In this document: in pieces, positions 28,360-43,581 of the stretch
Numbering within the stretch: position 1 is the stretch's first letter
Layout of the letters: each line of letters starts with the position of its first letter
Assembly: GCF_009914755.1 (NCBI RefSeq)
Contig: NC_060925.1
Source of the DNA: the human T2T-CHM13v2.0 reference genome, Homo sapiens
DNA: 64,000 bases
Reading direction: 5' to 3' (one strand)
Notes under the pieces: generated by a model
Told to the model about the DNA's origin: nothing
The model's input: the letters and a program-made list of their open reading frames with translations, nothing else
The model's database searches: none
Position numbers and translations under genes: made by a program

Positions 28360-28556
28360 GGCGACGGTGGAGCCCTGGCTCAACAAGCGGCCGCGCGGTT
28401 GGCTGGCGGCACGAGGCCGAGGAGGAGGGCGGAGGCGGAGGGGAGGGCAGAGGGTTGGTGGAGCTGGAGGAAGCTCCGGACGACGACTGGAAGAAGGAGG
28501 CGGGCGGCCCGGGCCTCAGGCCCCTCCCAGGCTCTGAGTCTCCCGGCTGCAGGCGG

Positions 28557-28623
28557 ATGGATGGGGCTTCTTCAGGCGGTGGCGGCAGCAGCGAAGGTGG
28601 CGGCGGCAGCAGCGGCAGCGGCT
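28557..28623 (+). CDS. MIER1: MIER1 exon 1A coding part (long N-terminal isoform)
   Basis: Encodes MDGASSGGGGSSEGGGGSSGSG. Donor T|gtaagt. 67+101 nt keeps frame with exon 2A and the common exons. Confidence 0.85.
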
Positions 28624-29669
28624 GTAAGTGCAGCCTCCACAAGCCATCTCTCCCCTTCTATTCCAGTTTGGGATGAGGGGCTCCTGAGGTGTCCTCAGTC
28701 CCCTTTCTCTCCTTCCCCTCCCCCACGGCAGTGTACCGCCCGGAAGACCCTTAACTTCCGGGGAGGGGCTGCCGCAGAACGCGCCTGGCTTGCTCTCCGC
28801 CGGCTGCCAAAGGCGCATGCGCAGCTTCCTCCCTCTGGCCATCCACTCCCTCCCAGCGCCGCCTTTTTGCCTTCGCGGTGGTGGCGCCGCGCTGGGAATC
28901 CGCTGCGGAGTGAGTTCGCCTCGCCCCGTTCGCTTCGGTCCCTGATCCCAGTCGGGGTGGGGCTAAGCTGACCACCCTGCTGTGGCTCCGCCTCTTTCTC
29001 CTGTATTTCCCTCACTTGTGTCCCATCCCCGGGAGGCTCTCGCTTGCACTGCAGCCTTTATGGTGAGCAGCGCCCTGGGCCAACTTGCCCTTTTCGGATG
29101 GAGTCAGGGAGGGAGGAGAGACTCGAATAGGGTATTACTGTAAGGAAACGAGGTCCTCCTAGCGCGTGGGAGGATCCCTTGGGACAGATGCCCGCCGCTC
29201 TTTACTCTTGTTCTTTCAGCTTGTAGTGGCTAGGTCCCTGGCCTGGAGCCTATCTGTGGTCCCTGCATGCTGTGTAACCTTGAGCGAGTCACTATCCCTC
29301 TCTGGGCTTCAGTTTTCCCTATTTAAAGCTTCCTCCAACGCTAGAATTCTGCATTTCTGCAGAAGAACTTATGTAATTACAAGATTGACTTGGCTATTGA
29401 GGCCGCTTCACCAAGATGACCCGGAGTTGACTGAACCTTCTTCACTTATGGGTGGAATGAGGCGACCTATTTATTGGGTCGCTTTTATTCCTTTATCATT
29501 AGTTACAAATTGCATGACTTAAGGCTCATTAAATGTTTTTCTAAAATTGTCATGGGATCCTTGTCCTGATTCCCGACCATCTTTTTAAAAATGCGAAACA
29601 GGGTGGATGGTGAGCTTGTATCATCGTTTCTGTCTCCTTGCTACTGAGGCTCTCTTTCCTTTGATCCAG

Positions 29670-29770
29670 ATGGTGTGGTCGCTCGATTCTCCCAGTGCCT
29701 GGCTGAGTTTCGGACGTGGTTAAGAACCAACTGGTTGAGGTTCAATGCAGACAAGACGGATGTGATGCTG
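29670..29770 (+). CDS. MIER1: MIER1 exon 2A, 101 nt
   Basis: Acceptor ctttcctttgatccag| and donor CTG|gtaggc. Encodes (Y)GVVARFSQCLAEFRTWLRTNWLRFNADKTDVML. Confidence 0.88.
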
Positions 29771-32417
29771 GTAGGCAGGGGTACACTTGGAGATTAAGGG
29801 AGGGAAAATCCAAACTCCCTCAAGTAATATAAGATTATATTACTCTTCTTATATGTTCCAGTGTTTGAGAACTGATGGGCCAAAAATTTCCAGAATTTGG
29901 GTGAGATAAAAATAACATGTCATCAATGTAAAAACCATAATCATAGTTTGTAATATTCTGATAAAATGGGGCCACTGGATAAAACTGTAAAAATTATGAA
30001 AAGAAAATCCAAAACTGTTATTTGAAGAACCAAAAGCCTATATAAGTGTTTTAGAGTGGCATTAATAACAAAAAATGAAACTAACGAAAGATGATGCTGA
30101 TTGTCACTATAGATGTGGGGCTTCCAAATGTAATAGGCTAAGTTTTTTAGATGTAGGTATTTTCAACCAAATTAGTAATTATCCATAAAATTTTACCACC
30201 ACATCATAAAGACATGGTGTAGGCTGTTGCTTTTAAATAAAAATTTCAGGAAATAGTTTATAAACTAATCTCAAAAGAGACTCATGGACGCTGAAAATTG
30301 TTAGATATAGAATTTTTTAGTTTTGGATGTGTTGTATTAATCTATTTCAGTCAGCTAACCCCAGAGTCTAAATTGTTATAAGTACAGTATTTTCTTGGTG
30401 CATTTTGAGAGGTACCTTTTTGGATTGCATAACAGATAGGTTTATATAGTATATATATGTATGTTACTTGTATTTGAATCAGGTGTTGGTACTGAATAAA
30501 AGGTTATATTTCTTAGGTATATGTAAATTGCCAAAGAAGTTTGTTCATTGGTTCGTTTAAGGTACTGGTTGAAGTAAGATTGTGCTCCTAAATGCTTTTG
30601 TTAAAAGCATAATAATAACTGAGGGGTTTGTGTGTGCGTGCGCCTTATAGCCTCTATAGAATTGTTCAATAACTTTTGAATGGAAGATTCAGTAAATTGC
30701 TTACAAATGATTTATCAATATAATAGCAGTTTTAAGTAGCTTAATGTCATAAAAATTAATGTTACTTTGCCTGAAAATAAGGAGGCTTTTAGGTGGGGAA
30801 TAGGAGCTGAAGAGGCATTTATTCAGGCTTTGTATAGTGGTTTTTTGTTTTGGGACATTAATCACAAACCTCACATAAAATTGGAATTCAGCACACTTTT
30901 TTAGTTTAAAAATTTTATACACAATTCCAACAGAACTACTGTTTTGGATATCACATTAATAAATAACAAAGTGTAATAATTTTAAGCAGACACAATTAAT
31001 GGTGCATTTTCTTATGCCTTTAGCTCTCTCATGTCCTATTTTCAACTCTTCTAGTATGAATAGGCTTTAAAAATAAATTTTTTTTTGTTAACCCAAGTAT
31101 AAATATTAACTGTTTGCATTTGGATACAAAGAAGATATCTGTTGAATTAATCCAAAGTGCTGAAGAACTAAGGGTAATGGATGGAAACAACAAGGAGGTA
31201 GATTCTGGCATAATAAAAGAAAGAATGTTTTAAACATTTGAACTTTTTTTGAAAAGAGCAGCCTTTTTATGAGATATAGTGAGTCACTGGAGGGGTTTAA
31301 ACATAGGCAGAAAGCCTGGTAGTAGAAGCATGATGAGAGATTACTATCTTGACAGGGTAGAGAATTGACTAAAAGATCTCTAAGGTCCCATCCAACACTA
31401 AAATTCTATAACTAGTGAATAGTTAATTTTTATATATTTAATACTGAAGAGGGTAAGTAAGCGTTTTGAGAAAGACTTTTCATTCCGTAAGGTGGCTCCT
31501 GAAAATTTTACAGTTAGGTGTATCACTAAAATAAAATAATAGTGGAAGGATACTGAATTCAGTGGTAATGTGTTACCTATGAATTGCAGTATTAGAGCTG
31601 TTTCTTTTTTATAATATCTGAACCTAAAAAACCCACTGAATCCACATTTATAAAAAGGGGAAGGGGAAAAATATAGAGAGTTTTTTTCCCTCAATAATAA
31701 TAATACCATTTAAAACTAGTAATATTGATACACAATATTAATAAACTTAAAGAGTTATTTAACAGTAAGATAGATACCCATTCAGAAATGTTTCAGACTT
31801 CCATTTTCCTGACAAGTTTAGGATTCATTCAGTAGGTTAATAGACTATGATCCCCTGCTCTTTATCATAGTTGGGATTTCTGTTGGTAGTTTAACTGAAG
31901 AATCAAAGATTCAGTGTACTTAAGCAAGTTATTTCTGTACCTTGTATTGTAACACTTTTAATTTTCCTTTGGTAGCCAAATTTCATAAATTAGCTTTCAT
32001 ATGTTAATGGAAAACCCTCCTTCATCTCCATGGTATAAAGCCTGAGTTTGTACCTCTAGGCCCCTAATTGTGTCTGTACCCACCTCAGGTCCATGTATAT
32101 CCATTGTTCTTTGCCTTCAGCTCTTTTCATTAAGTGTATTGATTGAAAACTATTTGGATATGAACTGACACTTTTAAAAAGTCATTTTTATTTCAAGTCC
32201 AGAGGATTGACATAATTCAACAGGGTAACTATTAGAAACTATATACCTCTGCTAAAATATTTATTCCCCCAAGGAATCCTGAAAAACACTTTTATATAAG
32301 TTTTCTAAAAAATAAAATGAAAATACTGTACAGTACAGTTAATGGTAAAAATTGTTTGTAGATTTGGGAACCTTAAAGTTTTCCTTTCTCTTCTTTCCCT
32401 TGCTTTTCTTTCAGTAG

Positions 32418-32491
32418 AAAATGTGCATCAGATGTTTATGTTTAATTGGTTTACAGACTGTCTGTGGACTCTTTTCCTGTCAAATTACCAG
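32418..32491 (+). CDS. MIER1: MIER1 cassette exon 3A (74 nt); coding from ATG 32432: MFMFNWFTDCLWTLFLSNYQ
   Basis: Long pyrimidine tract plus cagtag| acceptor, and donor CAG|gtaatg. The 20 codons join PSVESSSP in frame and match the recalled MIER1-3A N-terminus. Confidence 0.85.
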
Positions 32492-43556: not shown

Positions 43557-43581
43557 CCATCTGTTGAATCTTCAAGTCCAG
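43557..43581 (+). CDS. MIER1: MIER1 first common exon, 25-nt microexon (PSVESSSP-G)
   Basis: Strong pyrimidine tract ttttcctcttttctccccttctcag| and donor CAG|gtaagt. Confidence 0.93.

What the first reader, a model, noticed from the sequence alone, without database searches (positions are those of the whole stretch)
29648..29797. MIER1 exon 2A looks like an in-frame domesticated fragment of an ancient L2/CR1-type LINE reverse transcriptase
Seen in sequence: the coding frame, extended across both splice sites, reads GSLSFDPD|GVVARFSQCLAEFRTWLRTNWLRFNADKTDVML|VGRGTLGD*. From recalled family knowledge, the segment after YADD in L2/CR1-clade RTs has the pattern YADDTQLYLSF....V..L..CL.(D/E)I..WM..N.L.LN..KTE(V/L)(M/L)LVG. 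The match (LSF, CL-AE, W, N-WL-N, KT-D-VMLVG) continues into intronic sequence on both sides, as expected if splice sites arose inside an old element. Inference: an RT palm/thumb amphipathic helix was exonized in its original sense frame. It would supply the long N-terminus and the ML start of an HDAC1/2 corepressor scaffold. Keeping the RT frame stop-free in so old a repeat hints at selection.
Basis: partly seen in the sequence, partly recalled or inferred. Interest (0 to 1): 0.85.

Follow-up and report, generated by a model that had tools for sequence, protein, structure and literature searches.

The report
MIER1 exon from old L2 element
A small, highly conserved coding exon of the human MIER1 gene really is a leftover piece of an ancient LINE-2 reverse transcriptase gene, but this was already reported with the green anole lizard genome in 2011.

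Summary
Window 29648-29797 (+) reads exactly as quoted, in the MIER1 coding frame.

The origin in a LINE reverse transcriptase (RT) also holds.
- An exhaustive search of 1.84 billion proteins gave 32 hits at E<=0.001. Eight are MIER1 copies, 11 carry Pfam RVT_1, 7 are short RT-like fragments and 6 are repeat-protein artefacts.
- A profile of 29 lizard and tuatara RTs scores the peptide 28.8 bits. The best of 20,000 shuffles scores 10.0.
- The match sits just after YADD and runs about 7-8 codons into both introns.
- Both splice sites lie inside former RT codons.
- In a model of a Komodo dragon RT the segment is the palm helix after motif C plus the motif D loop and strand, not the thumb.
- 25 of 33 exon residues are invariant in 20 mammals, platypus included.

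It is not new. A 2012 review (PMC3899998) says Alföldi et al. 2011 identified this LINE2-derived MIER1 exon, conserved in 29 mammals.

Still open: whether the peptide is translated or mostly 5' leader, and what it does.

The parts
29670..29770 (+). MIER1 exon 2A. Its 33 codons (from 29672) are derived from an L2-type RT: the helix after motif C, the motif D loop with the conserved Lys, and a beta strand. It ends in ATG CTG, the 'ML' start.
   Evidence: Hub annotation; frame; RT homology; exon equals residues 181-213 of the Varanus RT model: helix 179-199, strand 210-214; 25 of 33 residues invariant in 20 mammals.
29648..29669 (+). Intronic 5' flank still in the RT frame (GSLSFDP + D). The pyrimidine-rich Ser/Leu/Phe codons form the polypyrimidine tract, and CCA GAT (Pro-Asp) gives the CAG acceptor.
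   Evidence: sequence CTCTCTTTCCTTTGATCCAG|AT; alignments start at query residue 2; tblastn of bird L2 fragments starts at 29648-29663 in 12 of 16 and further upstream (29555-29633) in 4 gapped alignments.
29771..29797 (+). Intronic 3' flank still in the RT frame (VGRGTLGD, then TAA). The GT donor is the first two bases of the Val codon of the element's conserved L-V-G.
   Evidence: ATGCTG|GTAGGC; alignments reach query 44-48; aligned LVG/LIG in L2 RTs.
28518..28623 (+). MIER1 first exon (P1 promoter) with the ATG at 28557. It opens the frame that reads through exon 2A.
   Evidence: Hub annotation.
43557..43581 (+). Next constitutive coding exon (PSVESSSP), joined in frame to exon 2A in the selected transcript.
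   Evidence: Hub annotation.
32415..32491 (+). Alternative exon 3A (MFMFNWFTDCLWTLFLSNYQ, ATG at 32432). After exon 2A its first codon is an in-frame TAG, so the L2-derived frame then becomes a 56-codon upstream ORF.
   Evidence: PMC4011797.
33784..33928 (+). First exon of the second promoter, ending in ATGGCGGAG (the MAE start). These transcripts skip exon 2A.
   Evidence: PMC4011797.

Best explanation
Before monotremes and therians split, a LINE-2 type retrotransposon sat in sense orientation in the first intron of MIER1. A stretch of about 47 codons of its reverse transcriptase gene survives. It begins just after the catalytic YADD.

Splice signals arose inside the old coding sequence (inferred from the alignment). 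The Ser-Leu-Ser-Phe codons serve as the polypyrimidine tract. Pro-Asp (CCA GAT) gives the AG acceptor. The Val codon of the element's Leu-Val-Gly gives the GT donor.

The resulting 101-base exon is read in the RT's own frame. In transcripts from the upstream promoter it links a short Gly/Ser-rich start (MDGASS...) to the body of the protein. This adds 33 residues that in the RT formed one palm helix, the motif D loop and one strand.

Shown here: the homology, its position in the RT, the shared frame, the splice sites, and strong conservation in mammals.

Inferred: that the peptide is translated and acts as a helical N-terminal module of the 565-aa isoform of this HDAC1/2 corepressor. It cannot have polymerase activity, because the rest of the RT is gone.
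For: - Frame and sequence.
- Pfam: RVT_1 is the only family hit, at the expected profile positions 166-192 of 205.
- Exhaustive phmmer: 32 proteins at E<=0.001. Of these, 11 carry RVT_1 and 7 more are short fragments with a DDTQL...LN.DKTE pattern.
- BLASTP to Varanus RTs: 22/41 and 23/42 identities at residues 174-214 and 277-318, directly after YADD.
- These RTs belong to a huge reptile family named from Varanus, Anolis, Podarcis, Sphenodon and Naja: 4932 proteins at E<=1e-10 among 8000 scored.
- Independent profile of 29 such RTs: 28.8 bits, against a maximum of 10.0 in 20,000 shuffles.
- This profile's only hit above 5 bits in all six frames of the 64-kb window is 29660-29782.
- The human genome holds 7 other weak matches to the peptide. 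Five of them hit the same profile region, one at 44.7 bits.
- The RT model (pLDDT 80.9) places the segment as helix 179-199, a loop with invariant K208, and strand 210-214. Its best solved match is human LINE-1 ORF2p.
- Conservation: 64 named hits, all mammals, at 82-100% identity, platypus included. 25 of 33 residues are invariant in 20 sequences.
- In print: PMC3899998 cites Alföldi et al. 2011 for this very exon.
Against: - Pfam's RVT_1 score (11.6 bits) is far below its cut-off of 29.6. Longer read-through translations of 75 and 117 residues gave no Pfam family at all.
- No other piece of the element is detectable in the window, so only about 140 bases carry the case.
- The database names never say 'L2'. 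That label rests on the cited paper and on my recall of the YADDTQLY motif.
- Translation is not shown. The gene's discoverers describe the upstream-promoter proteins as starting at M-L-, the last two codons of this exon, or at exon 3A. That would make most of the exon a 5' leader (PMC4011797).
- No paper in the library holds the tryptic peptide FSQCLAEFR.
- The MIER1 N-terminal model is of low confidence (pLDDT 58-72 over the exon).
- The conservation evidence comes from predicted proteins. These cannot show frameshifts, because a gene model would simply skip a broken exon.
Confidence: 0.9

Rival explanations
1. The exon is L2-derived but works mainly as RNA: a 5' leader or upstream ORF. Translation of the main protein starts at the ML codons or later. 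The conservation then reflects splicing or translational control, not a peptide.
For: PMC4011797 gives M-L- and MF- as the starts of upstream-promoter isoforms. With exon 3A joined at 32415 the frame from the exon 1 ATG stops at once at TAG, leaving a 56-codon upstream ORF. Conservation also covers the intronic flank in read-through ORFs of other mammals (P0003, P0005, P0071). No published peptide was found.
Against: RefSeq's selected transcript starts the CDS in exon 1 (hub annotation). The exon 1 start and its Gly/Ser tract stay in frame with exon 2A in horse, elephant, tenrec, deer mouse and lynx models, although the tract varies in length. The five human-platypus differences are all amino-acid changes with no frame break. 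These are predicted models, so the argument is soft.
Confidence: 0.25
2. The likeness to reverse transcriptase is chance, or convergence of a generic helix.
For: The Pfam E-value is only 0.23. Searching PDB sequences gave three unrelated chance hits at E 0.02-1.3 and no RT. Six of the 32 exhaustive hits are repeat proteins unrelated to RT, one at E 1e-14.
Against: 0 of 20,000 shuffles come near the real score (28.8 against 10.0 bits). All RT hits align at the same place after YADD. The match was found independently by others.
Confidence: 0.01
3. The source element was a CR1 or another non-L2 LINE clade.
For: No tool here names clades. Pfam RVT_1 covers all of them. The 44-column tree is largely unresolved.
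Against: P0076 carries two RT pieces. One is, from recall, CR1-like (…KCQVLHLG). The other is of the YADDTQLY type. The peptide aligns only to the second. The nearest relatives all carry YADDTQLY…LNPDKTEVLLVG. The published work calls it LINE2.
Confidence: 0.04

Closest known systems
The MIER1 exon exapted from LINE2, reported by Alföldi et al. 2011 (Nature 477:587, green anole genome), as described in the review PMC3899998
   Same: [quoted passage not shown] My best hits are likewise lizard RTs.
   Different: None in substance. I could not open the primary paper or its supplement, so I cannot confirm that its coordinates are exactly this exon. No other L2-like coding piece exists in the part of MIER1 covered by this window. 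Details added here: position in the RT fold, splice sites inside RT codons, presence in platypus, and shuffle statistics.
ORF2 reverse transcriptase of L2-type LINEs of lizards and tuatara (e.g. P0078, Varanus komodoensis; Pfam RVT_1)
   Same: 51-55% identity over 41-47 residues directly after YADD. The conserved Lys of motif D and the L-V-G that follows are kept.
   Different: Only about 47 of at least 446 codons remain. YADD and all other RT motifs are absent. It is a fragment, not an enzyme.
Decayed L2 RT remnants elsewhere in the human genome (L002-L008)
   Same: Same RT segment, and in six of the seven the same W in place of the lizard K before L-K-L-N. Five of the 6 remnants in the tree group with the MIER1 exon (L007 was left out as too short), apart from squamate RTs, with weak support.
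   Different: They are 33-52% identical to the exon peptide. Three of the 7 are listed with stops inside the match, and a fourth (L008) shows one in my translation of the matched stretch. Whether they are exons was not looked up. The MIER1 copy is nearly invariant among mammals.
Human LINE-1 ORF2p (PDB 8c8j), the closest solved structure to the source RT
   Same: Same non-LTR RT fold (Foldseek E 5e-9 to the model of P0078).
   Different: Only 17-20% identity. It is a different LINE clade, and the exon peptide itself finds no PDB sequence.

Membership tests
Sequence derived from an L2-type LINE ORF2 reverse transcriptase | Significant similarity to the RT domain, colinear and at one consistent position | tested here: met
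   11 RVT_1 proteins at E<=8e-4; BLASTP 50 bits, directly after YADD; 28.8 bits against at most 10.0 in 20,000 shuffles; RVT_1 positions 166-192 of 205.
Sequence derived from an L2-type LINE ORF2 reverse transcriptase | Other copies of the same element segment dispersed in the same genome | tested here: met
   7 other human loci at E 0.002-2.9; 5 of these 7 hit the same region of the independent profile (L006 at 44.7 bits over profile 363-499).
Sequence derived from an L2-type LINE ORF2 reverse transcriptase | Assignment to the L2 clade rather than CR1, RTE or L1 | tested here: inconclusive
   No curated clade profiles are on hand. The relatives carry YADDTQLY, which I recall as L2-typical. 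The recalled CR1-like piece of P0076 gives no alignment. The LINE2 label comes from the literature.
Sequence derived from an L2-type LINE ORF2 reverse transcriptase | Further parts of the element (rest of RT, endonuclease, 3' tail) next to the fragment | tested here: not met
   no other hit above 5 bits in six frames of the window; longer read-through gives no Pfam family. This is expected for a very old fragment, and it limits the evidence to about 140 bases.
Pfam RVT_1 (functional reverse transcriptase domain) | Score above the gathering cut-off, and a catalytic YXDD present | tested here: not met
   11.6 bits against a cut-off of 29.6. There is no YXDD in frame upstream. It is a relic, not a member.
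Exapted transposon-derived protein-coding exon | Canonical splice sites, and inclusion in frame in an annotated CDS | tested here: met
   Hub annotation (NM_001077700.3).
Exapted transposon-derived protein-coding exon | Purifying selection across species | tested here: met
   64 named hits, all mammals, at 82-100% identity; 25 of 33 residues invariant in 20 sequences including platypus. Neutral human L2 copies are only 33-52% identical to the exon peptide. No marsupial name appears in the list.
Exapted transposon-derived protein-coding exon | Selection acts on the protein (synonymous excess) and the peptide is made | not testable with these tools
   No ortholog DNA, PhyloCSF, Ribo-seq or proteomics data are on hand. 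One search found no paper with the peptide. One search reports an ML start.

The most novel reading that the evidence does not exclude
The L2 copy may have been in place before mammals and sauropsids split. Birds hold one conserved locus with a longer decayed L2 RT frame: 16 ORFs, two of them named from Pitangus and Willisornis. This locus and the MIER1 exon are each other's best match. Searched with the bird fragment P0074, the human genome's best hit is the MIER1 exon (E 2.7e-9, next best 6.7e-4). Searched with the exon, the best non-mammal hit among 1.84e9 proteins is P0074 (E 5.7e-9). If the bird locus lies in bird MIER1, the fragment has been kept for more than 300 million years in both lineages. 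That would point to a function older than the mammalian exon. The 44-column tree neither joins nor separates the two. Two well-preserved copies of one old subfamily would also give this mutual best match.
Probability: 0.1. Interest if true: 0.4.

Novelty: already known. Interest (0 to 1): 0.15.

Why it matters
It is a clean textbook case of a piece of a selfish element's enzyme being reused, in its own reading frame, as part of a host chromatin regulator. It also shows that active lizard repeats can reveal the origin of mammalian sequence that is too old to recognise otherwise. Because the case was published in 2011, this check confirms and adds detail rather than discovers. The details are: which RT elements the exon encodes, that both splice sites come from RT codons, and that platypus has the exon. 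The real open question is functional. Nobody seems to have tested what the 33 residues do in the long MIER1 isoform, or whether they are translated.

Tried and rejected
- Pfam on longer read-through translations (75 and 117 residues, X at stops) gave no family. The surrounding decayed sequence dilutes the signal.
- A PDB sequence search with the peptide gave three unrelated chance hits and no RT.
- The word-based search with the peptide returned only MIER1 proteins, because exact 5-residue words crowd out RTs.
- The primary paper could not be opened by DOI or PMC id.
- Upstream extension of the homology to the YADD position. Four of 16 bird ORFs gave gapped tblastn alignments reaching 29555-29633, but with no gain in score. 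The independent profile starts only at 29660. In one other mammal (P0071) the frame upstream reads HCFCLVPTEAFFSF, which loosely recalls HQYADDTQLYLSF. The human needs a one-base frame change to read the same. I regard this as suggestive and unsupported.
- 'Amphipathic helix'. The hydrophobic moment of the 21-residue helix part is 0.29, and 3407 of 10,000 shuffles reach it. Rejected as a distinguishing feature.
- The structure model of a short MIER1 isoform predicts one long helix over the exon, but at pLDDT 58-72. That is too weak to build on.
- A tree to test whether the bird locus is the ortholog had too few columns and left the fork unresolved.
Full report
**1. What is in the sequence**

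The other two frames carry stops.

The annotated exon is 29670-29770. The spliced CDS reads MDGASSGGGGSSEGGGGSSGSGYGVVARFSQCLAEFRTWLRTNWLRFNADKTDVML|PSVESSSPGG....

The acceptor is CTCTCTTTCCTTTGATCCAG|AT and the donor is ATGCTG|GTAGGC.

**2. Is the reverse transcriptase likeness real?**

Yes. Six lines of evidence agree.

- **Pfam.** RVT_1 is the only family at E<=10. The hit is weak (E 0.23, 11.6 bits) but lies at profile positions 166-192 of 205, which is where a segment after YADD should fall.
- **Exhaustive search.** phmmer of the 49-residue peptide against 1.84 billion representative proteins returned 32 proteins at E<=0.001. I scanned 25 of them against Pfam and read 14. The 32 break down as follows:

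| Group | Count | Proteins |
|---|---|---|
| Copies of the MIER1 exon itself | 8 | P0002, P0071, P0004, P0005, P0011, P0046, P0054, P0070 |
| Proteins carrying RVT_1 | 11 | P0075, 76, 78, 80, 83, 84, 85, 86, 87, 90, 91 |
| Short fragments, no Pfam family, visible DDTQL...LN.DK.E pattern | 7 | P0074, 77, 88, 92, 93, 94, 95 |
| Long repeat proteins, matched in several stretches or none; I take these as artefacts | 6 | P0072 (a YadA adhesin, E 1e-14), P0073, 79, 81, 82, 89 |

- **Pairwise BLASTP.** Against two Varanus komodoensis RTs it gives 22/41 and 23/42 identities with no gaps. The matches sit at residues 174-214 and 277-318, immediately after HQYADDTQLYL.
- **Source family.** These RTs belong to a very large reptile family: 4932 proteins at E<=1e-10 among the 8000 scored. 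Names come from Varanus, Anolis, Podarcis, Salvator, Sphenodon and Naja.
- **Independent profile.** To avoid circularity I built a profile from 29 members of that family, none of which was a hit of the peptide search. The peptide scores 28.8 bits (E 4e-7) at profile positions 358-397. The best of 20,000 shuffles scores 10.0.
- **Window scan.** The same profile, run over all six frames of the 64-kb window, hits only 29660-29782 above 5 bits.

**3. Does the match run into the introns?**

Yes. The alignments cover query residues 2 to 42-48, which is 7 codons upstream of the exon and 1-7 downstream.

In the alignment to P0078, the flanks are about as similar as the exon. By my count, 7 of 15 flank positions and 17 of 33 exon positions are identical.

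Read against the alignment:
- the polypyrimidine tract is the run of Ser/Leu/Phe codons;
- the acceptor AG lies in CCA GAT (Pro-Asp, NPD or DPD in the elements);
- the donor GT is the start of the Val codon in the elements' conserved L-V-G.

So both splice sites lie inside former RT codons.

Beyond about 29648 and 29795 nothing significant remains. A possible further 13 codons upstream, in another frame in human, is suggestive only.

**4. Which part of the enzyme is it?**

An AlphaFold model of the Varanus RT (36-row alignment, mean pLDDT 80.9) shows these elements:
- YADD at 165-168, in the hairpin E161-165 / E168-175;
- a helix at 179-199;
- a loop with an invariant Lys at 208;
- a strand at 210-214.

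The exon corresponds to residues 181-213. It therefore encodes the palm helix after motif C plus the motif D loop and strand. The motif names are from established RT nomenclature. It is not the thumb. The model's best solved match is human LINE-1 ORF2p (8c8j, E 5e-9).

A model of a short MIER1 isoform predicts a helix over the exon, but at pLDDT 58-72 only.

**5. Other copies and age**

The human genome has 7 other weak matches to the peptide (E 0.002-2.9, 33-52% identity). Three are listed with stops inside the match, and my translation of a fourth (L008) also shows one. Five of the 7 hit the same region of the independent profile, one at 44.7 bits over 137 profile positions. These look like ordinary decayed L2 remnants. 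Six of them share with the exon a Trp where lizard RTs have Lys.

The exon is found in 64 named proteins, all from mammals. Sixty-one are named MIER1 and 3 are 'hypothetical' or unnamed. Identity to the human peptide is 82-100%, and platypus is included. No marsupial name appears in the list, which shows cluster representatives only.

In an alignment of 20 of these proteins, 25 of the 33 residues are invariant and 7 more nearly so. Platypus differs from human at five positions. At four of them platypus carries the residue common in L2 RTs.

So the exon predates the monotreme-therian split and has been under strong constraint since. The open frame alone proves little, since neutral remnants keep open frames of 33-98 codons.

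**6. Is it translated?**

This is the weak point.

*For translation.* RefSeq's selected transcript starts at the exon 1 ATG (28557) and reads through the exon. Models from several mammalian orders keep that start in frame, although the length of the Gly/Ser tract varies.

*Against translation.*
- The laboratory that characterised the gene describes upstream-promoter proteins as starting at M-L-, the last two codons of this exon, or at MF- in exon 3A (PMC4011797; I read part 1 of 2 of the text).
- When exon 3A is joined at 32415, its first codon is an in-frame TAG, so the L2-derived frame becomes a 56-codon upstream ORF.
- I found no paper holding the tryptic peptide FSQCLAEFR (supplements are not searched).
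- No ortholog DNA was available, so dN/dS could not be computed.

**7. Is it new?**

No. Searches for MIER1 with 'exonization', with 'exapted', and with 'anole' plus 'LINE' each returned the review PMC3899998. I read its passages, not the whole text. [quoted passage not shown] It adds that this was one of 96 exapted elements found with the lizard repeats. The reference is Nature 477:587, 2011.

The primary paper and its supplement are not held. I therefore cannot confirm the coordinates. However, this is the only L2-like coding piece in the part of the gene that I scanned. A wider search listed no other paper among its 15 that joins MIER1 with LINE2 terms.

**8. A lead that goes beyond the paper**

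The best non-mammalian hit (P0074, E 5.7e-9) belongs to a set of 16 ORFs that share flanks. They therefore look like one locus in different birds. Two are named, from Pitangus sulphuratus and Willisornis vidua.

They carry a longer decayed L2 RT frame, from before the YADD position to beyond motif D. Searched against the human genome, P0074 finds the MIER1 exon first (E 2.7e-9) and the next locus only at 6.7e-4.

A 44-column tree puts the MIER1 exon, the bird locus, five of the six human remnants included and the tuatara RT in one poorly resolved group, apart from squamate RTs (SH-aLRT 84). I left out rows with fewer than 28 filled columns (L007), and I masked seven platypus residues that come from other exons.

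A mutual best match is also expected for two well-preserved copies of one old subfamily. Without bird DNA, orthology cannot be tested here. I put it at about one in ten.

**9. Verdict**

- Observation: confirmed.
- Interpretation: supported, with minor corrections (palm not thumb, not notably amphipathic, register of 'LSF').
- Novelty: already known.
- Open questions: whether the 33 residues are translated, and what they do.

Noticed in passing
window 32412-32420 (start of exon 3A): Two acceptors three bases apart (exon starts 32415 and 32418 in the hub table; the sequence reads ...TTTCAG|TAG|AAA). Joined at 32415, exon 3A begins with an in-frame TAG after exon 2A. This ends the frame from the exon 1 ATG after 56 codons. 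Joined at 32418, the TAG is skipped.
   Followed up: partly
window 29862-29900 (+): A 39-base in-frame cassette with AG and GT borders, 92 bases downstream of exon 2A, encodes CLRTDGPKISRIW. Predicted horse and elephant MIER1 isoforms carry the matching peptide between DVML and PSVESS (P0021, P0059). It shows no likeness to the RT profile.
   Followed up: partly
proteins P0074, P0077, P0092, P0094, P0095, P0211-P0221 (not in the window): These look like one bird locus (two ORFs are named, from Pitangus and Willisornis) with a decayed L2 RT frame of about 100 codons, kept open in 16 ORFs. It is the mutual best match of the MIER1 exon. Its genomic position is unknown.
   Followed up: partly
human loci L002 (C2:162772738), L003 (C11:31781773), L004 (C2:66490498), L005 (C8:77352336), L006 (C6:99039185), L008 (C1:163822012): Old L2 RT remnants that are still recognisable at protein level, some with long open frames (L004: 98 codons, no stop). 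I did not check whether they are conserved or lie near particular genes.
   Followed up: no
window 29670-29723 (+), frame of 29670: The first three bases of exon 2A are ATG, in a different frame. This opens an 17-codon ORF (MVWSLDSPSAWLSFGRG, then a stop). It could act as an upstream ORF in any transcript containing this exon.
   Followed up: no
search result: With a 49-residue query, phmmer gave E-values of 1e-14 to 4e-4 to six long repeat proteins unrelated to RT (for example a YadA-type adhesin) by adding up several weak stretches. Whole-protein E-values for short queries against repeat proteins need a check of the single-stretch alignments.
   Followed up: yes
window 29606-29650 and protein P0071: In another mammal's read-through ORF the frame upstream of the exon reads HCFCLVPTEAFFSF, loosely like HQYADDTQLYLSF of the element. 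The human seems to differ by one base in the T-run, so the same reading sits in another frame (CLLATEALF). This is a possible relic of the YADD region and is not significant in any test.
   Followed up: partly
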